Positions 26,581 to 56,526 of a DNA stretch of 64,000 nucleotides are shown piece after piece; position 1 is the first letter of the stretch, and the number at the start of each line of letters is the position of its first letter. The stretch is from assembly GCA_016219925.1 (NCBI GenBank), contig JACRJU010000003.1, forward strand, positions 22,505 through 86,504, given 5' to 3'. The translations under genes and the position numbers were made by a program. The notes under the pieces were generated by a model. It was given only the letters and a program-made list of their open reading frames with translations. It was not told the DNA's origin and searched no databases. The stretch comes from Candidatus Uhrbacteria bacterium. GTDB taxonomy: Bacteria; Patescibacteriota; Patescibacteriia; UBA9934; GWF2-40-263.

Positions 26581-26608
26581 CGAGGGTCTCATTCCCTCGT
26601 TTTTTTGT
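26580..26608 (+). terminator. Rho-independent terminator after the kinase operon
   Basis: ACGAGGG-TCTCATT-CCCTCGT followed by TTTTTTT. Confidence 0.6.
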
Positions 26609-28000: not shown

Positions 28001-28379
28001 GATAGATAAATTTTGTTTATGATTTATAACAGTTTCCAATTTTTACGCTCATTTTAGCTAAAAAATGATTGACAGATAAGCTGTTTTTTGATGTGATGAT
28101 AACAGATCGCAACACACCGAACAGTTCTGTCTTGATCGAAGACGAAGTCGCAGATTATGTGACACACCCTTCAGAAACGGCAACACGGGTCTGTCGGTGC
28201 GATCCAAAACGATGCGCTGAATTGGGAGGCAGAGCATCGGACTCACCCACACGCATGGATTGTTCATCTGTGTGACATGAGTCAACACACTCGCGTCGGT
28301 GCGCGCAGGTCCTCGCGCATCCGGCGAGGAGGTTGACTCAATCTCCTCGTGGCGTTCTTTCAAAACAAGGAGAGCGATC

Positions 28380-30362: not shown

Positions 30363-30410
30363 CGCATCTCCTGTGCACAACATCTGTGCGCAGGTTTTTC
30401 GTTTTTCTGT

Positions 30411-30416
30411 TATAAT
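30411..30416 (+). promoter_or_regulatory. Candidate -10 box (TATAAT) 10 nt upstream of the VirB6-like ATG (leaderless or very short leader)
   Basis: TATAAT at 30411-30416 preceded by direct repeats TCTGTGCACAA/TCTGTGCGCAG; no convincing -35. Confidence 0.25.
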
Positions 30417-30426
30417 TTGTGCAGTT

Positions 30427-34999: not shown

Positions 35000-35042
35000 T
35001 ACAATGGAGAGAAGAAAGTAGCAAAGGAGTAAAATAACAGAT

Positions 35043-35474
35043 ATGCCCGATCAGTTCGTTGTTCCACAGTTTATTGATGCCGAAGATAAAATTTTCGGGC
35101 CGATCACGGCTCGGCAGTTTATTATTCTCATGGTGACCGGGCTGATTGACTTTGCGCTTTTCAAACTATTTTCATTTGTGACGTTTCTGCTTATTGGCAT
35201 TCCGGTCATCATCATCGGCGGGACGTTTGCCTTCGGAAAAGTGAATGGACAGGTTTTTCATTACTTCATGTTGAATCTCATCCAAACCGCAAAGAAACCG
35301 AAACTCCGTGTCTGGGAGAAAGTTTACAATGATGCAATATTGCGGTCGTATATTAAAGAAGAGATTCCTCCTCCGCCACCCCCTCCGCCGCATAAAGCGC
35401 CGATCTCTACATCGCGCCTTAATGAGTTGACGTTGGTGGTGAATACGGGCGGAGTGTATCAACCGGAGGAATGA
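35043..35474 (+). CDS. PrgI/VirB3-like small membrane protein
   Basis: 143 aa; N-terminal VPQFIDAEDKIFGPITARQ (PrgI-family signature KIxGPxTxRQ) followed by two TM helices; poly-Pro tract PPPPPPPPH; overlaps the next gene by 4 nt. Confidence 0.55.
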   Translation: MPDQFVVPQFIDAEDKIFGPITARQFIILMVTGLIDFALFKLFSFVTFLLIGIPVIIIGGTFAFGKVNGQVFHYFMLNLIQTAKKPKLRVWEKVYNDAILRSYIKEEIPPPPPPPPHKAPISTSRLNELTLVVNTGGVYQPEE

Positions 35475-36169
35475 GATTTATGCCCGAAATGCAATCCAAA
35501 AAACTGGCAAAATCAAAGCCGGGTCCTGCGACCACGACCTATCTTGATATTTCGGAGATTCGTGATGACATGGTCATTCTCAAAGACGGCACCGTGCGCG
35601 CAGTCCTTTTGGTTTCAAGCATCAACTTTGCGCTCAAGTCCGAAGAGGAACAAGAGGCGATCATTCAGGCCTACATGTCTTTTCTTAACAGTCTCGAATT
35701 CTCTTTGCAGGTGGTCATTCAATCGCGCCGCATGAACATCGATGCGTATATGGCCGCTTTGGGTGAACAGCAACGCAAAACGCAAAACGAACTTCTGCGT
35801 GCGCAGATTGCAGATTATCGAACATTCGTTGAGGAATTGGTTGAACTCGGTCAAATCATGCAAAAGCGATTTTATGTGGTGATGCCCTATGATCCGCTCA
35901 CCAACAAGAAGAAGAATTTTTGGACGCGGCTTGGAGAAGCGATGTCGCCCGCGGCCTCGGCCAAACTCAACCAAAAACAGTTAGCGGATCGTATTGAACA
36001 GCTTTCGCGACGCGTGGAAATCGTGCAAGGTCAGCTCAATAGCATGGGACTCAACAGCGCGCGCTTGGATACGCAAAGTCTGATCGAGCTCTATTACAAT
36101 GCCTATAATCCAGATGTTTTTGAAACAGAAAAGATGGCGGAACTTTCGGAGTTTCAGTTCGAATCATAA
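35471..36169 (+). CDS. VirB4 N-terminal-domain protein (stand-alone)
   Basis: 232 aa; DISEIRDDMVILKDGTVRAVLLVSSINFALKSEEEQEAIIQAYMSFLNSL...RFYVVMPYDP matches the N-terminal domain pattern of Gram-positive VirB4 (TrsE/PrgJ-type). Separated from the ATPase ORF by a TAA stop and a 2-nt gap in a different frame. Confidence 0.5.
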   Translation: MRFMPEMQSKKLAKSKPGPATTTYLDISEIRDDMVILKDGTVRAVLLVSSINFALKSEEEQEAIIQAYMSFLNSLEFSLQVVIQSRRMNIDAYMAALGEQQRKTQNELLRAQIADYRTFVEELVELGQIMQKRFYVVMPYDPLTNKKKNFWTRLGEAMSPAASAKLNQKQLADRIEQLSRRVEIVQGQLNSMGLNSARLDTQSLIELYYNAYNPDVFETEKMAELSEFQFES

Positions 36170-36171
36170 GT

Positions 36172-38271
36172 ATGCCGATTGACATAGGAGCCCTCAAACA
36201 AAAAATGCCCACTCCGCCGCCGGTGAAGCCTAAACAGGTCAAACCGGAGGAGGCGCGCGTGCAGAAAGAACGCGAAGCGCTGGAGGAGGAACGCATTTAT
36301 CGCAAAGGTGTCGTGACCGTGAAAGATATTATTTCACCGGCCGCTTTTGAAGTTCTCCCACGCTCTTTGCGGCTCAACGGCATGTTTTTACGGACGCTCT
36401 TTATCATCAACTATCCGCGTCACATCGGATTGAGGTGGTCATCACCGCTCATTAATCTCAACAAGACGTTCGATGTCGCCATGTTTTTTTATCCGATCAA
36501 GGCCAACATCATCTTAAAACAGCTCCAAAAGAAGGTTGGTGTTTTGGAGGCTGGGATTTTTGCGGGCGCAGAAAAAGGCGCGCCGCGCGACCCGCTTTCC
36601 GAGACGGCCCTGCGCGATGTAGAAGCCTTGCGCGATGCGCTGACTCAAGGCATTGAGCATTTTTTCCAGTTCGCGTTTTATGTGACGATTTACGCGACGT
36701 CCGAGGAAGAGTTAGACCGTTACACCAGTGAAGTCGAAGCGATTTTTGGCAGTAAGCTTATCTACACGAAAGCCGGATTTTATCAGGCAGAGCAGGGGTT
36801 CAATTCCACCATTCCGCTTGGCAACGATGAGTTGATGATCAATTACAACATGAATACGTCGCCGATCGCGGCGTCATTTCCGTTCATTAGCTCCGATCTC
36901 ACTTCCGACAACGGTATTTTGTACGGTATCAACCGCCACAACAACTCGCTAATTTTATTTGATCGTTTCAGCTTGCAAAACGCGAACTCGGTCGTATTCG
37001 CGACCTCCGGCGCGGGAAAATCATACACGATCAAACTTGAGATTTTGCGTTCGCTCATGATGGGAGTGGACGTCATTGTGATTGACCCTGAGATGGAATA
37101 CAAACATCTTTCCGATGCGGTCGGCGGAACTTACATCAATGTCTCGCTCGCTTCAGATGCGAAAGTGAATCCCTTTGATCTTCCGCGCGCGGTCGGAGAG
37201 GGGACAAAAGTTGATGATATTATTCGAAGCGCCATTATCACCCTCAAAGGACTTTTGCGCATCATGATCGGGACGCCGATTGGTGAACAAGGGAAATTGG
37301 GATTCACGCCGGAGGAAGATTCTGTTCTTGATCGCGCGCTCATCGAGACTTACGCCAAAAAGGACATCACCCCTGACTTGATCTCGCTTGCCGACGTGGA
37401 GGCGCCGATCATGCAGGATTTTCAAGATGTGCTCGAAGGCATGGAGGGGGCCGAAGCGATCGTGGCTCGTTTGAAAAAATTTACCGAAGGGACGTTTTCG
37501 GGACTGTTAAATTCTCCGACGACAGTGCAGATGAATAACCAGCTCGTGGTGTTTTCTGTCCGCGATTTGGAAGACGAGCTCCGGCCGGTCGGCATCTATT
37601 CGATCGTGAATTACATTTGGAATGTGACGCGATCGGAGCGCAAGAAACGCGTGTTGGTGATTGATGAAGCGTGGTGGCTGATGACGAACGAAGATTCGGC
37701 GAAGTTTATTTTCGCGCTCGTGAAGCGCGCGCGAAAATACTACTTGGGGGTGACCACGATCACGCAAGATGTCAACGACTTTTTGCGTTCGCCATACGGT
37801 CAGGCGATCGTGACCAACTCCGCGATGCAGGTTCTCCTTAAACAGTCGCCGTCGGCTGTGGATAATGTTCAACAGACATTTAACCTGACGGACGGTGAAA
37901 AATATCTTTTACTGGAGTCGGGAGTAGGGGAGGGGATCTTTTTTGCCGGACAAAAACACGCCGCCATCAAAATCGTCGCTTCTTATACGGAAGATCAAAT
38001 CGTGACAACCAATCCGCAACAGTTGCTCGAAATTGAACGGGCGAAAAAAGAATTTGAAGAACAAGAGACGGCCGCGGAAGCTGGCGAGAAAACGTCGAAA
38101 CCTCCCGCGGGTGGACAGGTCGGTGGGGAACAGGCCGATCGTGCGGATGAAGCGTTCGATATCGAAAAAGAAGCCAAAGAGGCGCAAAATACCGCCGCGG
38201 CCAAGCTGTTGAATCAAGAACAAGTCGGCGAAGCGGAAGCTCAAAAAATTCGTGATTCTCTTCAAGTATGA
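36172..38271 (+). CDS. VirB4/TraC/TrsE-family type IV secretion ATPase
   Basis: 699 aa; Walker A FATSGAGKSYT, Walker B with VirB4 hallmark VLVIDEAWWLM, ITQDVNDF motif; N-terminal region FLRTLFIINYPRHIGLRW typical of Gram-positive VirB4. Confidence 0.85.
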   Translation: MPIDIGALKQKMPTPPPVKPKQVKPEEARVQKEREALEEERIYRKGVVTVKDIISPAAFEVLPRSLRLNGMFLRTLFIINYPRHIGLRWSSPLINLNKTFDVAMFFYPIKANIILKQLQKKVGVLEAGIFAGAEKGAPRDPLSETALRDVEALRDALTQGIEHFFQFAFYVTIYATSEEELDRYTSEVEAIFGSKLIYTKAGFYQAEQGFNSTIPLGNDELMINYNMNTSPIAASFPFISSDLTSDNGILYGINRHNNSLILFDRFSLQNANSVVFATSGAGKSYTIKLEILRSLMMGVDVIVIDPEMEYKHLSDAVGGTYINVSLASDAKVNPFDLPRAVGEGTKVDDIIRSAIITLKGLLRIMIGTPIGEQGKLGFTPEEDSVLDRALIETYAKKDITPDLISLADVEAPIMQDFQDVLEGMEGAEAIVARLKKFTEGTFSGLLNSPTTVQMNNQLVVFSVRDLEDELRPVGIYSIVNYIWNVTRSERKKRVLVIDEAWWLMTNEDSAKFIFALVKRARKYYLGVTTITQDVNDFLRSPYGQAIVTNSAMQVLLKQSPSAVDNVQQTFNLTDGEKYLLLESGVGEGIFFAGQKHAAIKIVASYTEDQIVTTNPQQLLEIERAKKEFEEQETAAEAGEKTSKPPAGGQVGGEQADRADEAFDIEKEAKEAQNTAAAKLLNQEQVGEAEAQKIRDSLQV

Positions 38272-38852
38272 TGGTGACTCGCAAAACACGCCTTATCGTT
38301 CTTGGTTTAATCGCGTTGGTTCTCTTGTTGTTAATCGTTTGGCTCTTCTTGTTTTTAAGAAGGCCGTCTGCCACACCAGCGTCTTCCGAGCCGGTTCTAA
38401 CGGAAGATCAAAAACACATTCCGGAGATTTCTCAACCGACGCTAAAAGATGAGGAACTGAAGAAGGAACAGCAAACGCGAGAAGTTTCCGTGGGAGCCAC
38501 GACGCTTGCTAAATTGTTTGCCGAGCGTTACGGCAGTTATTCCAATGAGGCCCACTTTCAGAATTTGTTTGATGTCATGCCTCTGATGACGGAAAGTTTT
38601 GCCCAAAAGACGAAGGCTTTTGTTGCTTCAACCACTTTACCTGATACGTATTACGGGGTATCGACGCGCGTGTTGACCGTGAAGGTTGAAGCGCTTGATG
38701 ATGCGGCAGGAACCGCAACGATTAGCATGCAAACGCAACGCGAAGTGGCACAAGGGTCTACGCAAAATGTAAACGTTATGTATCAAGAGATTCGTTTGTC
38801 GCTTGTGAAGCAGGCTGGCGTATGGAAGGTGGATTCAGCGGATTGGCAGTAA
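38268..38852 (+). CDS. Bitopic membrane protein, possible VirB8/NTF2-like T4SS component
   Basis: 194 aa; N-terminal TM (LIVLGLIALVLLLLIVWLFLFL) plus a soluble domain of about 150 aa; ATGA overlap with the VirB4 stop. The VirB8 assignment rests only on size, topology and gene position. Confidence 0.3.
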   Translation: MMVTRKTRLIVLGLIALVLLLLIVWLFLFLRRPSATPASSEPVLTEDQKHIPEISQPTLKDEELKKEQQTREVSVGATTLAKLFAERYGSYSNEAHFQNLFDVMPLMTESFAQKTKAFVASTTLPDTYYGVSTRVLTVKVEALDDAAGTATISMQTQREVAQGSTQNVNVMYQEIRLSLVKQAGVWKVDSADWQ

Positions 38853-38948: not shown

Positions 38949-38969
38949 TTCACGAAAGCATGGCCATGG

Positions 38970-45589: not shown

Positions 45590-45640
45590 GTTCCTGTCAT
45601 CCTGAGGCGGTCGAATGACCGCCGAAGGATCTCGCGTTAC
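45590..45640. repeat. Solo copy of the GTCATCCTGAGG...CGAAGGATCTCGCG palindromic-repeat family, plus a GGCGGTC-GAAT-GACCGCC hairpin, between convergent recG and radA
   Basis: CCTGTCATCCTGAGGCGGTCGAATGACCGCCGAAGGATCTCGCG matches the left-arm consensus of the elements at 22.2-22.9 kb. Confidence 0.55.
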
Positions 45641-46911
45641 AGATCAGCAACCGTTTTATGTGTCTCTGGTCCGCAAACACCTTGGACGCCTAGCCGGTTG
45701 GCTTCCTGCGCTCGTTTTTCCATCATGGGTACACGGCGGATTTCACCGCCCAGTCCGACCTCGCCGAAAAATACGGTTGGTTTTTCGTACGTCTGGTTTT
45801 TGGCCGCGCTTACGATCGCGGCGCAAATAGACAAGTCGGCAGCTGGCTCGGAAAGTTTCATGCCGCCAATCACATTGACATAGACGTCCTGTTCGCCCAG
45901 CCGCAAGTTGGCGCGTTTCGATAAAATAGCAATGAGCATTTGCAGGCGATTTTGATCAAAGCCAGACGCACGTCTTACAGGAGTGGCGTAGGCGGATTTT
46001 TCGACGAGTGCCTGCACCTCGACGAGAAACACGCGCGATCCCTCGATCGTTGCGGCAATGACGGAACCGGGAACCGCGACGCGTTCCTCGAGAAATCGTG
46101 CAGAGGGGTTCACGACTGGCACAAGTCCGCCGGACGTCATCTCAAACACGCCGACTTCGTCGGTCGCCCCGAATCGATTTTTCGATGCGGACAACCATCG
46201 GAACGGATGGACGCGATCACCATCCAGATTGAGAACAACATCCACCATGTGCTCGAGCGTTTTGGGTCCGGCAATCGCTCCATCTTTCGTCACTTGGCCG
46301 ATGAGCATAATGGCGACCCCCGTGCGTTTGGCGAGCTCCATCAGCAGGGAAGTCGCATAGCGGACGAGCGTAGGACTTCCGGGACTTCCTTCGACCTGTT
46401 CGGAAAAAAGGGTCTGAACGGAATCGATAATCACGACGTCAGGTTGTTGTTTCTCGATCGTTTTGACGAGCGCTTCAATTGTTCCAGATTCCAAAAAATA
46501 AAGATGATCAAGTTTGGTGTTCAGACGGACAAATCGTGCTTTGAGTTGCCCCGCGGATTCTTCGCCAGAGATATAAAGCACGTTCAGCTCCTGTTGGATA
46601 AACCGTTTTGCCATGTCAGCAACAAGCGTTGACTTTCCAATCCCCGGTTCCCCCGACAATAAAACGAGAGATCCTTTCACGATCCCTCCTCCCATGACCC
46701 GATCCAGTTCCGGCTCTTTGGTTTCAAATCGTGCGTGTTCGTTTTGGCCGGTGATTTCGGATAGGGCAACAGGTTTGAGAGCGGTAGCCGTGGAAGGACG
46801 GCGCGTCGTCGGCGCGACTGTTTCTTCGATCAACGTTCCCCACGTCTGACATTCAAAACATTTCCCGGACCATTTTTGAAATTGCGCGTCGCAGTGCGTG
46901 CAGATAAACAT
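45637..46911 (-). CDS. radA: DNA repair protein RadA/Sms
   Basis: N-terminal C4 zinc finger (CTHCDAQF...CFEC), Walker A GEPGIGKST, KNRFG motif, and a C-terminal Lon-like domain. Start assigned to the ATG at 46909-46911 (MFICTHC). Confidence 0.9.
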   Translation of the reverse strand: MFICTHCDAQFQKWSGKCFECQTWGTLIEETVAPTTRRPSTATALKPVALSEITGQNEHARFETKEPELDRVMGGGIVKGSLVLLSGEPGIGKSTLVADMAKRFIQQELNVLYISGEESAGQLKARFVRLNTKLDHLYFLESGTIEALVKTIEKQQPDVVIIDSVQTLFSEQVEGSPGSPTLVRYATSLLMELAKRTGVAIMLIGQVTKDGAIAGPKTLEHMVDVVLNLDGDRVHPFRWLSASKNRFGATDEVGVFEMTSGGLVPVVNPSARFLEERVAVPGSVIAATIEGSRVFLVEVQALVEKSAYATPVRRASGFDQNRLQMLIAILSKRANLRLGEQDVYVNVIGGMKLSEPAADLSICAAIVSAAKNQTYEKPTVFFGEVGLGGEIRRVPMMEKRAQEANRLGVQGVCGPETHKTVADL

Positions 46912-46912
46912 A

Positions 46913-48202
46913 TCATTTCTTCTCAATCAAGTAGGCGCTGGGAATTTTTCCATTTTCAAATTCACTTTTTGGAATTTTGACGATCCCGTTCATGCGACCC
47001 ACGTCGTAAACTTCAAAAAAATCACCTGAAATGCCCGTAAGGACCATGTAATGTCCTTTGTAGGATTTATCACTTCCATCTGCAAGCTTCCCCGTGCACC
47101 CATGGCAGGAAAAGACGATCGGTTTTTTTTGTCCGAGAATTTTTGAAATAAGGCTTGTATTTTTTGGAGAAATGGATTTGCACCCTTGTCCTGGCCATGA
47201 TTTTGGGATTTCTTTACAGAGGATTCCGAGACTGGTTCCACTACTGCAAGAAAGATGGGCGCCAACTTTTGCCGCAACGTCTGCAACCGCCGGAGGAGTG
47301 ACATTTATTCCGTTATAAACCAAAACCGCTGCAACGGACGTTGGACCGCAGCCACTTTCGCACACATTGTCTTCGTGGATTTCTTTATTATGTTTATTTG
47401 GCCCGCAGGATACGGTTTTCCCATCTGGACCTTTATACGCATGTTTTTTCCATTTCGCATCGCATTGTTTAAATTTTGGCAAGGATCCCGGCGTGACCGA
47501 AACATCCGGATACGTTGTCGCTTCGTCCGTTTCATCGGTCACTTCATTATTTCCAACCCCTTCGATTCTCTCGACTTCCGTAATGACGACGGACTTCAGT
47601 CGCACAAGTTCAGGATTGACGATGAACAGAATAAGATAGGTTGAGAGGAGCAAGACAACGCCGACGACAGCATTTTTTATCTGTGTCTGGGCTTTTTTTA
47701 TGTCGCCTGATCCTGCGGCGAGAACATACCGAATGCCGGCAAACATGACCAAAGCGATCGCAATAAAAACCGAAATGTTTATAAGATATTTGTAAGTACT
47801 ATTGAGATAGTCTGCGAGAAAATTGATATGAAGATTACCGGAGATTTTTTTGACGGGAGAAAAAGTCAAACCTGGAATCTGTACACTGAGTTTTGGAGTG
47901 ACGATAGCGACTTTAGATTCTTTTGTCTTTGTCGTTACGGCCGTGGCATGAGCGATGGTACAAGAGACCTCGACGCTCGCGCCGCTGAAGGCAGTATCGG
48001 CATATTCGTGAGCCGTGAAGTCGTCCCCGTAGGTTTTTTTACACGTTGCTTCGCATTCCCCTTCAAGAGCGGAATCTTTCACGGTGACTGGCGTGCAATC
48101 GTCTTTTTCTCCGAAATAGCAAACACACACCGCGGCGGCGAAAACTGGTTTCGGCAGGAGATGGAGAAAAAGAAGGGTTAAGATGAAGACGATTTTTCGC
48201 AT
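46913..48202 (-). CDS. Membrane-anchored extracytoplasmic protein with N-terminal 6-Cys domain, TM hairpin and C-terminal C39-like (papain-fold) peptidase domain
   Basis: 429 aa; signal peptide; CxCYFGEKDDC...C...CxxxC...C domain; two TM helices; C-terminal CGPTSVAAVL (catalytic Cys) ... GHYMVLTGI (His), the Peptidase_C39_2 pattern. Confidence 0.6.
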   Translation of the reverse strand: MRKIVFILTLLFLHLLPKPVFAAAVCVCYFGEKDDCTPVTVKDSALEGECEATCKKTYGDDFTAHEYADTAFSGASVEVSCTIAHATAVTTKTKESKVAIVTPKLSVQIPGLTFSPVKKISGNLHINFLADYLNSTYKYLINISVFIAIALVMFAGIRYVLAAGSGDIKKAQTQIKNAVVGVVLLLSTYLILFIVNPELVRLKSVVITEVERIEGVGNNEVTDETDEATTYPDVSVTPGSLPKFKQCDAKWKKHAYKGPDGKTVSCGPNKHNKEIHEDNVCESGCGPTSVAAVLVYNGINVTPPAVADVAAKVGAHLSCSSGTSLGILCKEIPKSWPGQGCKSISPKNTSLISKILGQKKPIVFSCHGCTGKLADGSDKSYKGHYMVLTGISGDFFEVYDVGRMNGIVKIPKSEFENGKIPSAYLIEKK

Positions 48203-48209
48203 ACAGGAA

Positions 48210-49733
48210 TCATAACCAGAAACATTTTGATCCTCCCGTTGGGGTGTGCGTAGCCGGGTCGAGCGTGACTCCCATTTTTTGTCCGAGTTTTTTTAAATCA
48301 AAATTAGGAGGATCAACGTGGGCGCTCGGGGGTTTCGAGAACTCGCAGTGCCCCCTGACGGTGCTGTCATCAATTTTGAATCCGTATTTTTTACTCAATC
48401 CTTGGATCAATTTTGCGATGTTATCGTATTGAGCTTCCGTATAGGTATATTTTTTCCCTTCCATTCCGTAAAAAATATCAATGCCGACGGAGATATTATT
48501 TTCTTTACAGCAATGATTCATGATATGTCCGACATCTGCCAGCTGAAAAATTTTGCCATCTGTTGTAACAGCGAAATGGCTCCCGATCGGGGTTTGTCTT
48601 TTGGAGGGAGCTCGGACAACCCGTTGCCCGTCTTTGGTGCATCCCTCGTAATTGAATTCGCCGGTTTTTTTACTCTGTTTGCATTTCGCAATTTTGCCGT
48701 AGTGGTAATCAGAAAACCACATGTTGAGCATGCCTTTAACGTTCGTGCCAGGAAATCCCAAATGAAGAATCACTATTTTTACGGCCGATGGCGGCCGTTT
48801 TTTGTTCTTCGTGGCGTTGGAGATATTGCAATCAAGCAGACCGACAAATTTTGTATCAATCGTCACCCCACTGAGTGATTCAGCCACGGAGGGAACAGGA
48901 ATGGTACAAGGACGGGGCGGATCTATGTAGCCATCGCCTTCTTTTTCAAGGGGGGGTTTGACAACCGTCAATCCGCTTCGCGATCCTGGTCCAAAAGGGA
49001 GTTTGACCTGTTCTCCTGATGCCGCCACCGGAGCGGGTTCGTCTGATTCGGTCTCAACCGCATCAGAATGGTCTATCGCTTCGTCTAAGGCAATGCCTTC
49101 GATTGAGGGAATGGTAAGGGGCCGTAGGGTTCCGAGTTTGGGATTGACGATTTCAAGGATCGCGGCGGCCGTCATCACGAGGACTAAGCCAGTCAGACCG
49201 TTTTTGATGCGCTGTTTGGCTTTTTCAAGTTGAGAGGGAGCTCCCGCGGAAAGGACCCATTGCACGCCGCCGACCATGACCAACACAATCGCTAAGAAAG
49301 CCGCTATGCCGACAATGTATTGGTAGGTCCCATTAATATATTGCCCCAAAAAATCTATCTGCAGTTCTCCACCCTTTTGTAAAACAGGGGTAAAAGTGAC
49401 CGTGGGGATTTTTACTTGAAGTTTTGGCAATACGATGCCTGTTGCTGGTTTCGTGACAATGGGATTTGCGGCTTCATGAGCTTTGGAACATTCAATGTAG
49501 AGACTTGCGCCAAATTTTGTTGCCGAGTCCGTGAATTGAACACTCTTAAAAATATCTGCGTATTTGCCTTTACAAATGAGTTCGCACTGCGTTTGCGTTG
49601 CTGAATCCTCGACACCAATTGATTGACAATCATTTTTTTCTCCAAAATAGCAGTAACATGCCGGTGCCGCAAAACTCGTGGCGGGAACAAGCCACGTCAC
49701 CAAAAGTCCTGGCAGCAACAACCATTTGAGCAT
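48210..49733 (-). CDS. Paralogous membrane-anchored protein with the same N-terminal 6-Cys domain plus TM hairpin and a C-terminal N-acetylmuramoyl-L-alanine amidase (amidase_2/PGRP-like) domain
   Basis: 507 aa; the N-terminal 200 aa align with the upstream paralog (CYCYFGEKNDC..., VLPKLQVKIP..TFTPV, TM hairpin). The C-terminal region IVILHLG...GSHFAVTTDGKIFQL...NNISVGIDIFYG...TEAQYDNIAKLIQGLSKKYGF...VRGHCEF fits the amidase_2 fold. Confidence 0.6.
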   Translation of the reverse strand: MLKWLLLPGLLVTWLVPATSFAAPACYCYFGEKNDCQSIGVEDSATQTQCELICKGKYADIFKSVQFTDSATKFGASLYIECSKAHEAANPIVTKPATGIVLPKLQVKIPTVTFTPVLQKGGELQIDFLGQYINGTYQYIVGIAAFLAIVLVMVGGVQWVLSAGAPSQLEKAKQRIKNGLTGLVLVMTAAAILEIVNPKLGTLRPLTIPSIEGIALDEAIDHSDAVETESDEPAPVAASGEQVKLPFGPGSRSGLTVVKPPLEKEGDGYIDPPRPCTIPVPSVAESLSGVTIDTKFVGLLDCNISNATKNKKRPPSAVKIVILHLGFPGTNVKGMLNMWFSDYHYGKIAKCKQSKKTGEFNYEGCTKDGQRVVRAPSKRQTPIGSHFAVTTDGKIFQLADVGHIMNHCCKENNISVGIDIFYGMEGKKYTYTEAQYDNIAKLIQGLSKKYGFKIDDSTVRGHCEFSKPPSAHVDPPNFDLKKLGQKMGVTLDPATHTPTGGSKCFWL

Positions 49734-49736
49734 GGA

Positions 49737-50393
49737 TTAAGGTTGAGTGAGTTCCGTTTGAATAATTTGAAGGAGTTCTTCCGATGTGATCGAACCGACA
49801 ATTTTTTGAGAGCCGACAAATAACGTTGGTGTGGCCACGATGCCGAGCGCTCGACCTTCCTGAATATCTTTTTCAACAATGGGCATGGTGTCCTGGTCTG
49901 AAAAACAATTATTGAATCGGTCCATATCCAGTTTCAGCTCGCGGGCGATTTGTAGGTATTGATCCGTTGAGAGAATACTTTGACGAGCCATAAGCGCGTC
50001 ATGATAAGGCCAGAACAGGCCTTGGCGGTCTGCGCAGTGGGCGGCGATGGCGGCGGGAATCGCTTGTTCATGAGCCGACGGGTTTGGCAAGTCTTTCCAG
50101 ACGAGGCGAACTTCGTTTGGATAGGTGTGCAAGGCCACCTGCAAAGCGCTGTCGAGTGTCATGCAATGTTCACACTGGAAATCCGCAAACTCAATCAGGG
50201 TCAACTTCGGGTTTTCAGCGCCTCGACTTGGATTGACGAAAGTGACGCTTGGTTGTGTGATCGGTGTGGAAGTCGCTTCCTGTGCGGCTTTTGATTTTTC
50301 TAAATCAATGGGTTTAATACGCAACGCGAAAAAAACCAGCGTGATCAAGGCCAGAAAGCCGACGAGTAGAAGAGCCAACCAACGATTTCTCAT
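49737..50393 (-). CDS. DsbA-like thiol:disulfide oxidoreductase, membrane-anchored
   Basis: 218 aa; N-terminal TM; thioredoxin-fold CxxC active site (FQCEHC); cis-Pro region (VATPTLFV). Confidence 0.75.
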   Translation of the reverse strand: MRNRWLALLLVGFLALITLVFFALRIKPIDLEKSKAAQEATSTPITQPSVTFVNPSRGAENPKLTLIEFADFQCEHCMTLDSALQVALHTYPNEVRLVWKDLPNPSAHEQAIPAAIAAHCADRQGLFWPYHDALMARQSILSTDQYLQIARELKLDMDRFNNCFSDQDTMPIVEKDIQEGRALGIVATPTLFVGSQKIVGSITSEELLQIIQTELTQP

Positions 50394-50396
50394 ACC

Positions 50397-51647
50397 CTAT
50401 TTCAATTTTAGAGATTCCAGATTCCCTGTTTGTAAATTAGTGAAGTACAAAACGGACTGATCATTTGTGACGAACAATTTTGAAAGGGTTTTCTCTCCAT
50501 TAGGGATCGCGACGAGTGCGGAAGATCCGGAATCTACGTCAATGCGATAAATAGCATCGGGGAAGGTGCCGAACGCTTTTGGCTGAAGGCCGGCATTTGG
50601 CGGAAGGCCTTGCGGCACGGCGCAGTAGACCGTTGCAATACCCGCCCATGCGCATTTGTCGACCCACGTATTGATAGACAGGCTTTTTCGATGATCGCCC
50701 ATGCTTGCGCTTGTTCCGTCAACGATCCAGAGCAAAGGTCGATAATTGCTGTAAGAACCGGAAACCGAATAGAGTAATCGTTTTCCATCAGGCGACCATT
50801 GTGATTGAAACCCAAGCCCTTCAACGATCAGCCCTTTGAAATTTTCATGCTCTTTCCCAATGGGGATGATCATCTTGCGATCGATACTGCCCTGACCTTC
50901 GGCCGTGTCTGAAAAAGCCACAATCTGATCGTTTGGCGACCAATTGACTTGCACTTTTGTTTCATTGTCCCCAAGTTCTTGGATACTTCTGACATTTGAT
51001 CCATCAGCATTGGTGGTGACGAGCCAACGATTATTCGGGTCCAGACCAATACTTTTGGCAGCGATTTGATCCGAAGTCGGAGAAAATTCAAAATCTTTCC
51101 AGTGTTGCGGAAGCGTCACCTGCGTTTCGTTATCGAAATCGTAGACGACATTTGAGCCGTCGGGAAATTCAAGAACCGCTTTTTGCGCGTCTTTGTTCCA
51201 TGCGACATTTTCGACAGAAGGAAATTCTTTATTGGAAAGCGTTGTAACGTTTCCTGTGGCATCAATCCGATAAAATTTTCCATCTGAGTCATTGTAAAAA
51301 TTCACTCCGCTTCCGTCGCCCGAGAGCGTTGCATCCGCCACGGGCGCGGTTGTCAGCTCCGTCGTTTTTGTGATGCCACCTCCGGCCACTTCGGCGGCAG
51401 ATGGAAGGGCTTGTCCGCCGGGCGTAATTTCGCCAGCACCGGGCGTTCGTCCTGTTTGAGAAGGTGTAAGCGCGCCGCCTGTTGGGGCTTGGGCTTGCGG
51501 GGCTTCTGGAGCTGGTGTTTGCGGAGTGGCACGGAAAAAAGCGGCCCAGATGGCGTAGGCGATGACGATGACAGACAGAATAAAGCCGATAACGATCAGG
51601 AGGCGTTTTGTGCGCTCGGACATAGGATTAAGCAGAGATCGCCGCAA
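50397..51647 (-). CDS. TolB-like (PD40/WD40-like beta-propeller) protein with N-terminal membrane anchor
   Basis: 416 aa; TM anchor, a Pro/Gly-rich linker, then repeated PD40-like blades (WSPDGKRLLYS, WSPNDQIVAFSD, VTTNADGSNVR). Confidence 0.55.
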   Translation of the reverse strand: MRRSLLNPMSERTKRLLIVIGFILSVIVIAYAIWAAFFRATPQTPAPEAPQAQAPTGGALTPSQTGRTPGAGEITPGGQALPSAAEVAGGGITKTTELTTAPVADATLSGDGSGVNFYNDSDGKFYRIDATGNVTTLSNKEFPSVENVAWNKDAQKAVLEFPDGSNVVYDFDNETQVTLPQHWKDFEFSPTSDQIAAKSIGLDPNNRWLVTTNADGSNVRSIQELGDNETKVQVNWSPNDQIVAFSDTAEGQGSIDRKMIIPIGKEHENFKGLIVEGLGFQSQWSPDGKRLLYSVSGSYSNYRPLLWIVDGTSASMGDHRKSLSINTWVDKCAWAGIATVYCAVPQGLPPNAGLQPKAFGTFPDAIYRIDVDSGSSALVAIPNGEKTLSKLFVTNDQSVLYFTNLQTGNLESLKLK

Positions 51648-52566
51648 TAACGATGGCGATCAGGATAAAAGGAAGCATCGAGACGAGAATCATGATCAGA
51701 TCCGTTGCGAGCAGGACAATCATTGGACCAATGGCGTTCGTTCCATCATTTTTAGGGAATGGCATGGGAATGGGATCCCATGTCAATGGACCGATAATTT
51801 TGTGTTTGCCTTTTGTGACCCATCCTCCATAAACCATTTCAATATTGTACCACCCGAGAGTGATAAACCGAATAACAAACGTCACCAAGAAAGCCACGCC
51901 GCCTGTTCCGAGTTCCAAAGCTCCGGCGATGGAGTTCGCGATAAACAAGGCTGCTTTCGGAATGACTTTTTTGGCCGCGGCTTTTGCGATATCTTGGGAC
52001 GGTTTTGCTTCTTCCGGAGTGGCCGCCTGCATGGCATGGAACTGACGAAGCGCAGAAGTTGCGGCTTTGAATTTTGTGGCGGCGCTCGCTTGCTGACTTA
52101 AGGCTAGTTGTCCCGTTAGTCTTTTCATTTGATCAATGGGATCCTCTTCTTCCTCTTCTTGTTCATCGTTTTCCTGTTCTTCTTCCTTCTCATGCTCTTC
52201 TTCTTTTCTCTGCTTATCGTTTTTTTGCCTGGGATCTTTTGTATTGGTCTTATCTTGTCCGTTTCGGAATGCACGTTGTTGGAGTTGTGCGGAGTTGTTT
52301 GAACGTAATTGGAATTGTTGTCCTTGTAAACGCGCTCGTTGCAGTTCGCTACGCATGTCACCCGTTTTTCTTGCTGCTTTCTGTGTTGTTTGACTCACGG
52401 CGCGACCCGCTCTGGAACCTGCGCGTCCAACAGCGCGACCCGCTCGTGCGCCACCTCGCCCGGCCGCCCGCCCCGCGCCCACGGCCGCCCGTCCAACGCT
52501 AACAACAGCTCGTCCTGCGACAGCTGCTCCGCGAGCGGCTCCTGTTGCAATAGCGGCTAACACCAT
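51628..52566 (-). CDS. Hypothetical protein: Gly/Arg/Ala-rich low-complexity N-terminus, highly acidic E-rich segment, C-terminal TM helices
   Basis: 312 aa; GRAAGRGGARAGRAVGRAGSRAGRAV repeats; EEEHEKEEEQENDEQEEEEED; two C-terminal hydrophobic helices. Overlaps the TolB-like gene by 20 nt. Confidence 0.4.
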   Translation of the reverse strand: MVLAAIATGAARGAAVAGRAVVSVGRAAVGAGRAAGRGGARAGRAVGRAGSRAGRAVSQTTQKAARKTGDMRSELQRARLQGQQFQLRSNNSAQLQQRAFRNGQDKTNTKDPRQKNDKQRKEEEHEKEEEQENDEQEEEEEDPIDQMKRLTGQLALSQQASAATKFKAATSALRQFHAMQAATPEEAKPSQDIAKAAAKKVIPKAALFIANSIAGALELGTGGVAFLVTFVIRFITLGWYNIEMVYGGWVTKGKHKIIGPLTWDPIPMPFPKNDGTNAIGPMIVLLATDLIMILVSMLPFILIAIVIAAISA

Positions 52567-52571
52567 ACCTC

Positions 52572-55046
52572 CTACTCTTTTGTGACCTTAATAATTGTAT
52601 TGTGCACACTCACGCGCAATCGTGATGGGCGATCTTTTTTAGACAAGCGTTCCGCAATTTTTGTTTCGACCTCCTGTTGGATTTTTTGACGGACACTGCG
52701 TGCGCCGAGCTTTTTATCAAGACTCAAGGCCAGATGTTGACTCACGTTCGGTTGCCAGCGCACGCAAAGTTGATGGCTGGCATTCAAACGTTCGACCAGT
52801 TCATTCAATTCTTTTTCGACGATCCGTTGAAGCGCTTCGGTACTCAAGGCATCAAAGACGCAGATGTGGTCCATGCGGTTGATAAGTTCCGGACGGAATC
52901 GTTCCTCAAGTTCCTTTCGGATGTCCTGTGTGCGTTCACTTTTTTGTGTTTCCAACGATTGGGCAAAACCGATGCCTCCGTGTTCAAAGCGTTCCAGCCC
53001 GATGTTTGTCGTTAAAATGACGATCGTATTTTTGAAGCTGACCATTTTACCCGTTGCATCGGTAAGCTCGCCTTCCTCGAGAATTTGCAGAAGGAGATTT
53101 TGAACGTCCGGATGAGCTTTTTCTAATTCATCAAAGAGCACCACGCTGTACGGCCGCTGTTTTACGCGGTCGCTTAAGTTGGATTGATCCTTGTAGCCGA
53201 CATATCCCGCGGGAGAACCGATGAGTTTGGAGATCGTAAAACCTTCCGCATATTCGGACATGTCCAGCCGGATAAAGTTTTTTGGATTATAAAAAAACGT
53301 GCGTGCCACGGCTTTCGCGAGTTCAGTTTTGCCGACGCCTGATGGACCGATAAACAATAATGAAGAAAGAGGACGTTTGGGATGGGACAGTCCGGATTTG
53401 GCTCGCGCAAGAGCGCTGGCCACTTGGCTCACCACTTCGTCTTGACCAATGATGCCAGTTTGAAGGGCGCGGGCTAGGTCATCGGCCGAGGCACTCGTTT
53501 GGTGGGTGAGTTCATGGATCGGGATCCCGGTCATGCGCGAAATGACGCGCGCGATGTCCACGCCGTCAATGCTAAACAAAGGGGCCGTCGTTTCTTTTTT
53601 GGTATGAGAGATCGAAGAACGAACCTGCTCCTCTTTTTCTTTAAGCACAGAGGCTTCTTGGAAACGTTCTTCAACGACCGCTTGTCGTTTGGCTTCTCGC
53701 ACGCGCGCGAGTTCTTGCTCAAGGGATCGGTGCTGTTGTGCCGCGTCGTTTTGTCCCCGTTCCATTTTAGCCGCCGCCGCCGCTTCATCCATGAGATCGA
53801 TCGCTTTGTCGGGGAGCTGTCGATCTGGCACATACCGCGAGGAAAGGGCAACCGCTTGTGCAATCGCATCAGGCAAGATACGAACCTGGTGGAAATTTTC
53901 GTAATACGGAGCCAGCCCTTGCAAGATCGTCACACTGTCCGCTTGTGAAGGCTCATCGACCAGGATGGATTGAAAACGGCGTTCGAGCGCACTGTCTGAC
54001 TCGATCTGTTTTTTGCATTCTTCAGGAGTGGTGGCGCCGATACAACGAATATCGCCTCGCGCGAGGGCGGGCTTGAGAATGTTGGCGGCATCGAGCGAGC
54101 CGGAGGCGGCTCCCGCTCCAACGATCGTATGGATTTCATCAATAAACAAAATCACGTCTTCATGTTTTTTGATTTCATCAACAATTTGCCGTAATCGTCC
54201 TTCAAATTCGCCTCTGTACATCGTTCCGGCAATCAAGAGCGCGAGATCAAGCGCAAAGATTTTTTTGTCTTGAAGAATTTCAGGCACCGTTCCCTCGACG
54301 ATGCGTTTGGCTAGTCCTTCGACGATCGCGGTTTTGCCCACGCCTGGCGCACCCACCAAAAGCGGATTATTTTTGGTGCGACGGCATAAAATTTGCATCA
54401 GACGTTCGATTTCTCCGTCCCGTCCGATGACCGGGTCAATGGTTTTTTGAGAAGTGGTGCTGGTGAGTTCTCGCGCAAAGTATTCAAGGGCAGGCATTTT
54501 ATCATTCTCTTCTTCCAACATGACCGCCTGCGCGGTAGCCTCAAGATTCGTTCCATTTGAAATGGCGCCCGTAAGTTCTGGAAATTTTGAAGTGCTCTTG
54601 AGGACGATCGAGAGTTGTTGGCGGAGTTCTTTGAGATCTGTTTTTTGTTTTTCGAAAAATTGGTCGATCAGAGGCGTGTTCACTTGAAGGATACCCGAGA
54701 GCAAATGTTCGGTGCCCACAAAGCGATGACCGTAGATGTTTGCCGTCAGGACGGCTTTTTCCACGATGCGCTTGGCGTCGTTTGAGAGATGAAGCGTTGC
54801 GTTTGCGGCCTCGGTTGGGTTCATCCTGAAAGAAGCGGTTGCCCCGACAAGGACACGTAAGTCTCCTTGTTTTACGCCGACTTTTTTGAGAATCTCCCCG
54901 CCTATACATCCCTTTTGTGTGCCCAAAGCCCATAGAAGATGATGCGCTTCAATGGTTGGATCGTTTAGTTCAACCACAAAACACAACGCGCGCGTGAGGA
55001 CGTTTTTGAGATGCGTGGAAAACTTGTCGACAATATCGTGGGACAT
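52572..55046 (-). CDS. clpC: Clp/Hsp100 AAA+ chaperone ClpC (ATP-dependent Clp protease ATP-binding subunit)
   Basis: 824 aa; Clp_N repeats, two AAA+ modules (GAPGVGKT; GPSGVGKT), a short UVR-like linker ([30 protein letters not shown]) rather than the long ClpB middle domain. Confidence 0.85.
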
Positions 55047-55974: not shown

Positions 55975-56526
55975 TTAAAACTTCACCTCCGGTTTTTCCA
56001 ATTCCACATCAGGTGCATCGAAAAACTCACGGCGCGTAAACCCAAACGTTCCGGCAATGAGATTGGTGGGGAACACTTCGAGTTTAATGTTGTAGTCGCG
56101 GGCGTTGGCATTGTAGAAGCGGCGTGCGGCCTGGATTTTATCTTCAGCGTCGGTGAGCTCATGTTGAAGTTGCAAAAAGTTTTCCGATGCTTGCAGTTGC
56201 GGATAGCTTTCCGCGACCGCGAAAAGCGACTTCAATGTTTCAGACAGTACATTTTCTGCGCGCGCATGATCTTTCATGCTGTGCGCGCCCATCGCGGCCG
56301 CACGTGCTTCGGTCACTTTGGTGAACACCCCCTCTTCATGTTTGGCGTATCCCTTTACCGTATTCACGATGTTCGGGATAAGATCGTAGCGACGCTTGAG
56401 CTGAACCTCAATATCCGACCAAGCCTCCTCGGTGTGGTTCCTTGAAGAAACCAAGCCGTTATATGTTAGAATGAGCCACAGAACAATAACGACCAGAACA
56501 ATAAGAATGATCCAGGTAGGTTCCAT
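55975..56526 (-). CDS. lemA: LemA family protein
   Basis: 183 aa; N-terminal TM followed by the LemA domain (RRYDLIPN...FNANARDYN). Confidence 0.85.
   Translation of the reverse strand: MEPTWIILIVLVVIVLWLILTYNGLVSSRNHTEEAWSDIEVQLKRRYDLIPNIVNTVKGYAKHEEGVFTKVTEARAAAMGAHSMKDHARAENVLSETLKSLFAVAESYPQLQASENFLQLQHELTDAEDKIQAARRFYNANARDYNIKLEVFPTNLIAGTFGFTRREFFDAPDVELEKPEVKF

What the first reader, a model, noticed from the sequence alone, without database searches (positions are those of the whole stretch)
46913..52566. Five-gene envelope module inserted between clpC and radA: paired hydrolases sharing a novel 6-Cys N-terminal domain, plus DsbA-like, TolB-like and a low-complexity protein
In Firmicutes clpC and radA are adjacent. 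Here five tightly packed minus-strand genes sit between them. Two are paralogs with a shared architecture: signal peptide, a CxCYFGEKxDC-containing 6-Cys domain (conserved spacing CxC-x8-C-x14-C-x3-C-x27-C), a two-helix TM hairpin, then different enzymatic heads (C39-like peptidase and amidase_2). A membrane-anchored DsbA-like oxidoreductase in the same operon is the obvious partner to oxidise the Cys-rich domains. The 6-Cys domain does not match a family I recognise.
Basis: partly seen in the sequence, partly recalled or inferred. Interest (0 to 1): 0.65.

Follow-up and report, generated by a model that had tools for sequence, protein, structure and literature searches.

The report
Pilin-anchored cell-wall hydrolase operon, Uhrbacteria
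Two neighbouring genes in a Candidatus Uhrbacteria genome fuse a type IV secretion pilin-like membrane hairpin to a small disulfide-rich cap and to different cell-wall-cutting enzymes, inside an operon (with DsbA and a beta-propeller protein) conserved in the 43 related species found here, an architecture the literature searches run here did not find described.

Summary
Five tightly packed minus-strand genes lie between ClpC and RadA. Two are paralogs, 43% identical over 221 aa, with Amidase_2 and C39-like heads.

A VirB4/PrgI/VirB6-like cluster lies 8.6 kb away in the same window.

The 6-Cys domain matches nothing in Pfam, NCBIfam, PDB sequences or PDB folds. An exhaustive search of 1.84 billion representatives found only 27 other clusters. 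With an alignment it models confidently as a small beta-beta-alpha-beta-alpha domain.

The module is not a recent insertion. LemA-M48-ClpC-P5-propeller-DsbA-(1-3 pilin-hydrolases)-RadA recurs in 43 Uhrbacteria-like species representatives.
- DsbA lies directly upstream in 39 of 40 loci.
- Enzyme heads swap between species (VanY/M15, M23, papain-like, NlpC/P60, amidase, and in related proteins SLT).
- The N-terminal cap is optional: 15 window-type, 17 other Cys-rich, 23 absent.

So the DsbA link does not depend on the 6-Cys domain.

The best reading is disulfide-stabilised, pilin-anchored peptidoglycan hydrolases acting as the wall-cutting arm of the patescibacterial T4SS. Housekeeping autolysins are the main rival. 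I rate it a new variant of known kinds.

The parts
51628..52566 (-). P5: 312-aa protein with an Arg/Ala/Gly-rich then acidic low-complexity N-part and a conserved C-terminal hydrophobic region of about 130 aa (several TM segments)
   Evidence: ORF. No Pfam, NCBIfam or PDB match. The C-terminal region is 30-66% identical to the gene in the same position in related loci. Its homolog is present in most locus-A maps.
50397..51623 (-). P4: N-terminal TM anchor, Pro/Ala/Gly-rich linker, then a probable beta-propeller (about 408 aa). It is the most conserved gene of the module.
   Evidence: The ORF begins at a TTG at 51647; NCBI annotates 408 aa. PD40 19.3 bits and TIGR02800 25.6 bits are both below cutoff. 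It is 50-62% identical across loci. At least 1785 clusters were found; all named hits are Uhrbacteria or Patescibacteria/Parcubacteria, and some carry precomputed PF07676/PF26550/PF25174.
49737..50393 (-). Membrane-anchored DsbA-family thiol-disulfide oxidoreductase (218 aa; CEHC active site, Thr-Pro cis-proline loop)
   Evidence: Thioredoxin_4 E 1.5e-23 and DSBA E 7.6e-18. The motifs were read from the translation. It is 45-56% identical in related loci and lies directly upstream of the pilin-hydrolase in 39 of 40 loci.
48210..49733 (-). P2: signal peptide + 6-Cys cap + linker + pilin hairpin + Amidase_2 head (507 aa)
   Evidence: The T7 lysozyme alignment has E 0.0016. Candidate Zn ligands and the Lys are conserved with ortholog P0005.
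49464..49664 (-). 6-Cys domain of P2 (residues 24-90; C26, C28, C36, C50, C54, C82)
   Evidence: All six Cys are at least 90% conserved in the family. AF2 with the alignment gives pLDDT 85-95 and a b-b-a-b-a fold. No Pfam, PDB or Foldseek match.
49131..49352 (-). VirB2-like pilin hairpin of P2 (residues 128-201), preceded by the conserved PxLxVxIPGxxFS linker (residues 103-115, 49389-49427)
   Evidence: PF18895 38.7 bits at residues 131-194. AF2 helices 128-164 and 166-196. Conserved G155, G156, K173, R175 and N197-P198. The linker motif is at least 90% conserved in 65 homologs.
48309..48629 (-). Amidase_2 (N-acetylmuramoyl-L-alanine amidase) head of P2, Pfam-matched core (residues 369-475)
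   Evidence: PF01510 E 4.6e-13.
46913..48202 (-). P1: signal peptide + 6-Cys cap + linker + pilin hairpin + Peptidase_C39_2 head (429 aa)
   Evidence: The SGCGPTS Cys and GHY His motifs are conserved with P0004 and P0029.
47936..48133 (-). 6-Cys domain of P1 (residues 24-89)
47603..47824 (-). VirB2-like pilin hairpin of P1 (residues 127-200)
   Evidence: PF18895 26.1 bits, against a gathering cutoff of 26.6. The family pilin HMM gives E 7e-41.
47021..47362 (-). Peptidase_C39_2 (papain-like) head of P1 (residues 281-394)
   Evidence: PF13529 E 6e-11.
52572..55046 (-). ClpC-type AAA+ chaperone (upstream flank, same strand; preceded by M48 protease 55062-55955 and LemA 55975-56526)
45637..46926 (-). 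RadA (downstream flank, same strand)
28299..38852 (+). T4SS-like cluster in the same window: M23 protein, VirB6-like 998 aa, a 545-aa protein, PrgI/VirB3-like (35043-35474), TraC-like (35471-36169), VirB4 (36172-38271) and a TM protein of 194 aa. No short pilin gene was detected.
   Evidence: The TraC-like label comes from the synteny. Pilin HMM scans of all window ORFs hit only P1 and P2.

Best explanation
This is a conserved Uhrbacteria (CPR/Patescibacteria) envelope operon. Its output is one to three 'pilin-hydrolases'.

Architecture. Each pilin-hydrolase has a Sec signal peptide and a VirB2/TrbC-like hydrophobic hairpin whose basic loop (KAKQRIK) faces the cytoplasm. This topology places two parts outside the membrane: an optional N-terminal disulfide-rich cap (here the 6-Cys domain) and a C-terminal peptidoglycan-hydrolase head (here an Amidase_2 and a papain-like C39_2 peptidase). 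The co-encoded membrane-anchored DsbA oxidises the Cys-rich ectodomains. The strongly conserved membrane-anchored beta-propeller (P4) and the polytopic protein P5 are fixed partners of unknown role, perhaps a scaffold or regulator.

Proposed mechanism (inferred). The pilin module docks the enzymes to, or builds them into, the patescibacterial T4SS/pilus apparatus encoded 8.6 kb away. Wall cutting, a VirB1-like function, is thereby delivered exactly where the apparatus crosses the cell's own wall, and possibly a host's wall.

Shown: the domain architecture, paralogy, family size and distribution, synteny, head swapping and the optional cap.
Inferred: the topology, DsbA dependence, enzymatic activity and coupling to the T4SS.
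For: Architecture:
- PF18895 scores above the gathering cutoff in P2. It matches 60 of 65 locus-A homologs and 32 of 32 locus-B homologs at E<=1e-3. TrbC PF04956 matches a few members.
- NCBIfam's Mbov_0395 pilin-like conjugal transfer family matches at E 1.4e-6.
- AF2 gives a two-helix hairpin and a confident Cys domain.
- Every Pfam family that matches a head is a peptidoglycan hydrolase or papain-like peptidase family; some heads match no Pfam family. Catalytic motifs are conserved.

Synteny:
- The block LemA-M48-ClpC-P5-P4-DsbA-(1-3 pilin-hydrolases)-RadA occurs in 43 species representatives. DsbA is directly upstream in 39 of 40.

Link to the T4SS:
- The VirB4/PrgI/VirB6-like cluster is in the same window.
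- VirB4 lies within the 10-kb flank of the module in 7 further loci.
- In L084 the genes g545-PrgI-TraC-VirB4-g194-[359 aa]-P4-DsbA-pilin fusion-RadA form one co-directional, tightly spaced array.
- No other pilin gene is detectable in the window, or between VirB4 and the module in those loci.

Literature:
- VirB2-like pilins are widespread in Patescibacteria, and most genomes that have them lack a VirB1 homolog (PMC12102498).
- The T4SS genes and the pilin subunits encoded in that cluster are essential in a cultivated Saccharibacterium (PMC10633639).
Against: - The pilin hairpin profile finds no solved VirB2 or TraA pilin in the PDB by sequence or by fold. Pilin membership therefore rests on Pfam and NCBIfam profiles only.
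- Proteins of 430-510 aa, with folded domains at both ends, are far from canonical pilins of about 70-120 aa. They may be sterically unable to polymerise.
- In the window the module lies on the opposite strand to the T4SS cluster, among housekeeping genes (ClpC, RadA, RecG). In small syntenic genomes the proximity could be phylogenetic inertia.
- L013 shows no VirB4 within 10 kb.
- The T4SS cluster already carries its own M23 protein.
- There are no expression, localisation or activity data.
Confidence: 0.5

Rival explanations
1. Housekeeping autolysins. The pilin-like hairpin is only a membrane anchor that was recruited once. The operon (DsbA, propeller, P5, hydrolases) remodels the cell's own wall for growth and division and is independent of any T4SS.
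For: - The synteny is very stable and sits among core genes and envelope or protein quality-control genes: LemA, the M48 (HtpX-like) protease and ClpC.
- P4 is as conserved as RadA and ClpC.
- Between them the heads cover the usual autolysin bond specificities.
- In the window the module is on the opposite strand to the T4SS cluster and 8.6 kb away.
Against: - A housekeeping enzyme would not be expected to swap catalytic class between close species at one orthologous locus.
- The anchor keeps pilin-specific polar positions (GG, Q, K-x-R, NP) and scores with pilin profiles.
- In L084 the module is fused to a T4SS gene array.
- A second DsbA + pilin-fusion locus without hydrolase heads exists in the same genomes.
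Confidence: 0.3
2. Host-directed polymorphic effectors. The constant N-terminal module is a trafficking or display device. The swappable heads are weapons matched to the peptidoglycan chemotype of the bacterial host. They may be released by cleavage at the conserved PxLxVxIPG and VNPxL borders, with the Cys cap acting as a host-binding determinant.
For: - A constant N-module carries variable heads at a fixed locus, with 1-3 tandem paralogs.
- The cap is fast-evolving and optional.
- Conserved Pro-containing motifs flank the hairpin.
- Cultivated Patescibacteria are epibionts that need their T4SS (PMC10633639, PMC12857230).
Against: - No immunity-like small gene accompanies the heads in any of the loci mapped.
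- Uhrbacteria have no known host.
- Cleavage is pure inference.
- The enzymes would also act on the producer's own wall.
Confidence: 0.15
3. A recently inserted mobile island or prophage lysis cassette between clpC and radA.
For: - The hydrolase genes have slightly lower GC (0.45-0.47) than the flanks (about 0.52).
- The heads belong to families that also occur in endolysins.
Against: - The same gene order occurs in 43 species representatives, with the genes diverging in step with ClpC and RadA.
- There are no integrase, repeat or phage genes. No tRNA scan was run.
- Gaps of 3-7 bp place the genes inside a housekeeping transcription unit.
Confidence: 0.02

Closest known systems
VirB2/TrbC-type T4SS pilins, in particular the VirB2-like pilins (PF18895) and pilin arrays of Patescibacteria (Quinonero-Coronel et al. 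2025, PMC12102498; Wang et al. 2023, PMC10633639)
   Same: Both have a signal peptide followed by two hydrophobic helices joined by a short basic loop. Both match the Pfam PF18895 profile. Both occur in CPR genomes that carry a monoderm-type VirB4/PrgI/VirB6 system without a relaxase nearby. Both form tandem paralogs with low mutual identity.
   Different: These proteins are 430-510 aa rather than about 100-190 aa. They have a folded Cys-rich domain before the hairpin and an enzyme after it. They sit between clpC and radA rather than beside virB4. They always follow a DsbA and a beta-propeller gene.
VirB1-like peptidoglycan hydrolases of monoderm conjugation systems (PrgK of pCF10, TraG of pIP501, CwlT of ICEBs1)
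   Same: Both are membrane-tethered, modular wall hydrolases that work with a T4SS. Both use catalytic families such as SLT, NlpC/P60-CHAP and LytM/M23.
   Different: Known VirB1-like hydrolases are tethered by a single TM segment or a lipid. This statement is from my own knowledge and was not tested here. Here the tether is a pilin-like hairpin. Here there is one head per protein and the head is swapped between species. Amidase_2, VanY/M15 and C39-like heads also occur here.
Dedicated thiol-disulfide oxidoreductases encoded with pilus or T4SS genes (TrbB and TraF of F-like plasmids; SrgA for Pef fimbriae)
   Same: In both cases a DsbA/DsbC-family gene is kept next to the secreted, Cys-containing surface-structure genes it presumably folds.
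   Different: Here the oxidoreductase is a membrane-anchored DsbA in a monoderm CPR bacterium and is chromosomal. Its specificity for these substrates is untested, and it may be the cell's general DsbA.
Polymorphic toxin or effector architectures (constant N-terminal trafficking module, variable C-terminal domain)
   Same: The logic is the same: a conserved N-terminal module carries interchangeable C-terminal catalytic domains at one locus.
   Different: No adjacent immunity genes are present. The heads are restricted to wall hydrolases. The locus is an orthologous housekeeping position.
Cysteine-stabilised alpha-beta (CS-alpha-beta) motif of defensin-like peptides
   Same: The domain has CxC on a predicted beta-strand and CxxxC on a predicted helix. 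This pairing pattern defines the CS-alpha-beta motif.
   Different: The order is reversed, with CxC first. There is no sequence or Foldseek match. This is a resemblance recalled from memory, not a test.

Membership tests
VirB2/TrbC-like T4SS pilin (Pfam PF18895 / PF04956) | Profile match at or above the curated cutoff | tested here: met
   P2 scores 38.7 bits against a cutoff of 26.6. P1 scores 26.1 bits, just below, but is 43% identical to P2 across the region. At E<=1e-3, 60 of 65 and 32 of 32 homologs match. TrbC matches 2-3 members at E about 1e-4.
VirB2/TrbC-like T4SS pilin (Pfam PF18895 / PF04956) | Cleavable signal peptide followed by two hydrophobic helices joined by a short basic loop | tested here: met
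   The N-termini end in SFA/A and VFA/A. AF2 gives helices 128-164 and 166-196 with the loop SQLEKAKQRIKNG. No dedicated signal-peptide predictor was available.
VirB2/TrbC-like T4SS pilin (Pfam PF18895 / PF04956) | Small protein consisting essentially of the hairpin | tested here: not met
   The proteins are 429 and 507 aa, with about 100 aa before and 230-300 aa after the hairpin.
VirB2/TrbC-like T4SS pilin (Pfam PF18895 / PF04956) | [quoted passage not shown] | tested here: inconclusive
   In the window the genes are 8.6 kb from VirB4 on the opposite strand. In L084 they are in the same array. VirB4 is within 10 kb in 7 other loci.
VirB2/TrbC-like T4SS pilin (Pfam PF18895 / PF04956) | Detectable similarity to structurally solved conjugative pilins | tested here: not met
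   The hairpin profile searched against PDB sequences gives only a spurious PsbZ hit at E 0.2. Foldseek against PDB gives only generic helical hairpins at E > 0.2.
VirB2/TrbC-like T4SS pilin (Pfam PF18895 / PF04956) | Polymerises into a pilus with the help of VirB4 and VirB6 | not testable with these tools
   This needs microscopy or biochemistry.
DsbA-family oxidoreductase | Thioredoxin fold profile above cutoff, a CxxC active site and a cis-Pro loop | tested here: met
   PF13462 scores 84.2 bits and PF01323 65.4 bits. The CEHC and Thr-Pro motifs were read in the translation.
DsbA-family oxidoreductase | A re-oxidising partner (DsbB or VKOR) | tested here: inconclusive
   None was seen among the window ORFs scanned with Pfam. 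Not every ORF was scanned, and the rest of the genome was not available.
Amidase_2 (N-acetylmuramoyl-L-alanine amidase) | Profile above cutoff, with Zn ligands and the catalytic Lys | tested here: met
   PF01510 scores 50.1 bits. T7 lysozyme matches at E 0.0016. The His in ILHLGF, the His in RGHCE, a Lys and the Asp in HVDPP are conserved with ortholog P0005. The Tyr46 equivalent is Ser. Activity is untested.
Peptidase_C39_2 (papain-like) | Profile above cutoff, with the catalytic Cys and His | tested here: met
   PF13529 scores 43.5 bits. SGCGPTS and GHY are invariant in P1, P0004 and P0029. The substrate is unknown. A peptidoglycan target is inferred from the other heads of the family.
TolB / Tol-Pal beta-propeller | Equivalog match to TolB | tested here: not met
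   TIGR02800 scores 25.6 bits against a cutoff of 343. PD40 scores 19.3 against 20.9. The protein is probably a beta-propeller, but it is not TolB.
Polymorphic toxin system | A cognate immunity gene immediately downstream of each variable head | tested here: not met
   The heads are followed directly by the next pilin-hydrolase or by RadA in all mapped loci.

The most novel reading that the evidence does not exclude
The pilin-hydrolases are minor or tip subunits of a VirB2-type pilus, or the only pilin-type subunits of the Uhrbacteria T4SS, and form a 'drill-bit'. The hairpin is built into the filament or channel. The C-terminal enzyme cuts through the epibiont's own wall and then the host's wall. 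The optional disulfide-knotted N-terminal cap selects the host surface. This would explain why most Patescibacteria with VirB2-like pilins lack a VirB1 homolog, and why the heads and caps turn over between species.
Probability: 0.2. Interest if true: 0.85.

Novelty: new variant of a known kind. Interest (0 to 1): 0.6.

Why it matters
The T4SS and its VirB2-like pilins are widespread in Patescibacteria and essential in the one cultivated case studied. How the apparatus crosses cell walls, and what it does, is unknown. A lineage-wide family in which the pilin module is covalently joined to interchangeable wall hydrolases gives a concrete, testable candidate for the missing wall-breaching (VirB1-like) function. 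The family always comes with a DsbA and a conserved propeller. It also gives handles such as antibodies, enzyme assays and head specificity for inferring hosts of uncultivated Uhrbacteria. Separately, it adds a small, confidently modelled disulfide-rich domain with no known relatives.

Tried and rejected
- A word-index homology search with the Cys domain alone found nothing.
- Locus scans with the two-sequence Cys alignment found nothing in genomes or metagenomes because the patterns were too narrow. The 25-sequence alignment was too divergent to give scan patterns.
- Single-sequence AF2 of P2 was useless, with pLDDT 41.8.
- PDB sequence searches with the Cys profile, the pilin profile, P4, P5 and the P1 head gave nothing usable.
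- hhalign of the 6-Cys profile against the 8-Cys [CxC...CxxxC]x2 variant was inconclusive, with probability 6% and E 0.006.
- Promoter and terminator scans were no better than shuffles.
- The P5 positional analog in L084 shows no sequence similarity to P5.
- Rejected readings: P4 as TolB (scores far below cutoff); a mobile island (conserved synteny); a polymorphic toxin with immunity (no immunity genes); DsbA dedicated to the 6-Cys domain (DsbA persists without it).

Full report
**Observation.**
- P5: 51628-52566.
- P4: 50397-51647. The real start is probably 51623, which gives the 408 aa of the identical NCBI protein HZA85_00655 from Candidatus Uhrbacteria.
- DsbA: 49737-50393.
- P2: 48210-49733.
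- P1: 46913-48202.
- Flanks: a ClpC-type AAA+ protein at 52572-55046 and RadA at 45637-46926.

Gaps between genes are 3-7 bp. No intergenic terminator-like site stands out, and the promoter and terminator scan was no better than shuffled sequence.

P1 and P2 are 43% identical over 221 aa (E 7e-56). The match runs through the signal peptide, Cys domain, linker and hairpin and then stops. The C-terminal parts are Peptidase_C39_2 in P1 (43.5 bits) and Amidase_2 in P2 (50.1 bits). P3 is a DsbA-family protein (Thioredoxin_4, 84 bits) with an N-terminal TM segment, a CEHC motif and a Thr-Pro loop.

The real pattern is CxC-x7-C-x13-C-x3-C-x26/27-C. 'TolB-like' is only a sub-threshold PD40 hit.

The 'TM hairpin' matches Pfam PF18895, the T4SS pilin family (VirB2/TrbC-like). 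P2 scores 38.7 bits, above the cutoff of 26.6, and P1 scores 26.1. NCBIfam's Mycoplasma ICE pilin-like family also matches weakly.

The same window carries a monoderm-type T4SS-like cluster at 28299-38852 on the plus strand. Its genes are:
- an M23 protein;
- a 998-aa polytopic VirB6-like protein;
- a 545-aa protein;
- PrgI/VirB3-like (PF12666, 37.9 bits);
- a TraC-like protein;
- VirB4 (P-loop_TraG, E 2e-28);
- a 194-aa TM protein.

Family-specific and broadened pilin HMMs run on every window ORF of 45 aa or more hit only P1 and P2.

**The 6-Cys domain.** Exhaustive HMMER of the P1+P2 Cys region against 1.84 billion representative proteins returned 31 hits at E<=1e-3.
- Two are the window proteins.
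- Two are false positives (repeat proteins).
- The other 27 all share one architecture: signal peptide, CxCY[FY]-type six-Cys domain, a conserved PxLxVxIPGxxFS linker, the pilin hairpin and a variable C-terminal head.

All six Cys are at least 90% conserved. No Pfam or NCBIfam model covers the domain. A profile search of PDB sequences gave only E 3.7.

CxC lies on a strand and CxxxC on a helix. This recalls the cysteine-stabilised alpha-beta motif. That is a resemblance only, because I could not read the disulfide pairs from the model.

**Wider family and synteny.** Context look-ups for nine relatives and a scan of GTDB species representatives (74 loci) were mapped with local HMMs. The GTDB loci are almost all titled Candidatus Uhrbacteria, Patescibacteria or Parcubacteria, or are evidently mis-titled TPA MAGs.

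The block LemA-M48-ClpC-P5-P4-DsbA-(one to three pilin-hydrolase genes)-RadA, usually followed by RecG on the other strand, occurs in 43 species representatives. DsbA lies directly upstream of the first pilin-hydrolase in 39 of 40 loci with enough sequence.

| Gene | Identity across loci |
|---|---|
| P4 | 50-62% |
| ClpC and RadA | 55-67% |
| DsbA | 45-56% |
| N-terminal module of the hydrolases | 28-46% |

The module is therefore an old, lineage-wide feature and not a recent insertion.

**Head swapping and an optional cap.** Pfam hits on the 65 locus-A genes are:

| Pfam family | Members |
|---|---|
| T4SS_pilin | 60 |
| VanY | 14 |
| Peptidase_M23 | 14 |
| Peptidase_M15 | 7 |
| Peptidase_C39_2 | 6 |
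| NlpC/P60 | 5 |
| Peptidase_C70 | 4 |
| Peptidase_C39 | 4 |
| Amidase_2 | 2 |
| Peptidase_M15_4 | 2 |
| Peptidase_C10 | 2 |
| Glucosaminidase | 1 |

SLT heads occur among the 33 metagenome relatives. Neighbouring paralogs carry different heads: SLT + VanY in L010 and M15_4 + VanY in L013, as well as Amidase_2 + C39_2 here.

The region before the hairpin is equally variable:
- 15 genes, in 9 species, have the window-type 6-Cys domain.
- 17 have other CxC-initiated Cys-rich domains. These include an 8-Cys form that looks like [CxC...CxxxC] twice. Its relation to the 6-Cys domain is unproven by hhalign.
- 10 have a few Cys.
- 23 have no N-terminal domain at all.

DsbA is present regardless, and the heads themselves carry 3-14 Cys. 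So the DsbA link is real but is not specific to the 6-Cys domain.

A second locus type occurs elsewhere in the same genomes. It consists of DsbA, a pilin fusion with a different N-domain of about 10 Cys and a C-part with 16-46 Cys and no Pfam match, often followed by an M23 protein.

**Catalytic competence.**
- P1 keeps the SGCGPTS Cys and the GHY His, which are invariant in its orthologs.
- P2 aligns with T7 lysozyme (E 0.0016). It keeps the candidate Zn-ligand His, His and Asp and the Lys shared with its ortholog. The Tyr46 equivalent is Ser.

**Mechanism.** Shown: the architecture, family, synteny and variability.

Inferred from the signal peptide, the basic inter-helix loop and the hairpin: both the cap and the head lie outside the membrane, where DsbA can oxidise them and peptidoglycan is within reach.

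My preferred reading (confidence about 0.5) is that the pilin module ties these enzymes to the T4SS-like apparatus, giving a VirB1-like wall-cutting function fused to a VirB2-like subunit. Support:
- the profile-level pilin homology;
- the absence of any other pilin gene in the window, or between VirB4 and the module in eight loci;
- VirB4 within 10 kb in seven further loci;
- L084, where g545-PrgI-TraC-VirB4-g194-[359 aa]-P4-DsbA-pilin fusion-RadA form one co-directional array with gaps of 6-50 bp;
- published findings that patescibacterial genomes with VirB2-like pilins mostly lack VirB1 (PMC12102498), and that the T4SS genes and the pilin subunits in that cluster are essential in a cultivated Saccharibacterium (PMC10633639, PMC12857230).

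Against:
- there is no similarity to solved pilins;
- the proteins are very large for pilins;
- the neighbourhood is made of housekeeping genes;
- the proximity may be inherited synteny;
- the T4SS cluster has its own M23 protein.

The main rival (0.3) is that these are the cell's own autolysins on a recruited hairpin anchor. A host-directed, possibly cleaved effector reading (0.15) and a mobile island (0.02) follow.

**Comparison and novelty.** The pieces are known: VirB2-like pilins in CPR, T4SS-associated wall hydrolases, and DsbA genes kept next to pilus genes. The combination is not described in the papers I could search. That combination is a pilin hairpin covalently carrying interchangeable wall hydrolases and an optional disulfide-rich cap, in a fixed operon with DsbA and a conserved propeller. 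I rate it a new variant of a known kind, with interest 0.6.

Noticed in passing
window 12590-22219 (+): A giant 3209-aa ORF with an N-terminal hydrophobic segment and very many cysteines has no Pfam match. It lies just after KsgA. It is another likely substrate for the DsbA.
   Followed up: no
window ~23000-26600 and ~28300-30300: Two islands have 60-65% GC against a background of about 50%. The first holds a Ser/Thr protein kinase (24367-26580, Pkinase E 2e-38) overlapped by long antisense ORFs. The second is the 687-aa M23-peptidase gene that opens the T4SS-like cluster. They look horizontally acquired, or could be an assembly chimera.
   Followed up: partly
window 28299-38852 (+): The T4SS-like cluster (M23 protein, VirB6-like 998 aa, 545 aa, PrgI, TraC-like, VirB4, 194-aa TM protein) is followed by ComFC (38898-39647). 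No relaxase or coupling-protein family appeared among the Pfam hits of the cluster genes.
   Followed up: partly
L050, L053, L055, L057-L060, L062-L063, L065-L081, L083, L085-L087: A second conserved locus type pairs a DsbA-like gene with a 430-740-aa pilin fusion. The fusion has an N-domain of about 10 Cys (pattern ...VCA...P...CF...C...QPxECxxGxxYCY) and a C-part with 16-46 Cys and no Pfam match. It is often followed by an M23 protein.
   Followed up: partly
L088 7206-11045: An array of eight short (110-185 aa) tandem pilin genes matches the kind of VirB2 array described for other Patescibacteria.
   Followed up: no
L024 9257-11584: A 776-aa protein at the same locus has two pilin hairpin domains.
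   Followed up: no
L015, L016, L019, L024, L027 and many others: Many GTDB representative MAG records that carry this Uhrbacteria-type synteny are titled 'uncultured Gammaproteobacteria bacterium'. This is evidently a placeholder or a mislabel.
   Followed up: no
window 41975-42463 (-) and 22400-22690 (+): There is a stand-alone HNH endonuclease (PF01844). A 96-aa ORF at 22400-22690 is possibly GIY-YIG-like; this is by eye only and it was not scanned.
   Followed up: no
P0007, P0008, P0018, P0027; L014 6242-9049: A recurrent head of about 250 aa with a CVGPCHCA motif and many Cys has no Pfam match. It may be an undescribed wall-hydrolase or binding domain.
   Followed up: no
P0021 / L013 10001-11419: One family member carries two tandem copies of the Cys domain before the hairpin.
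   Followed up: no
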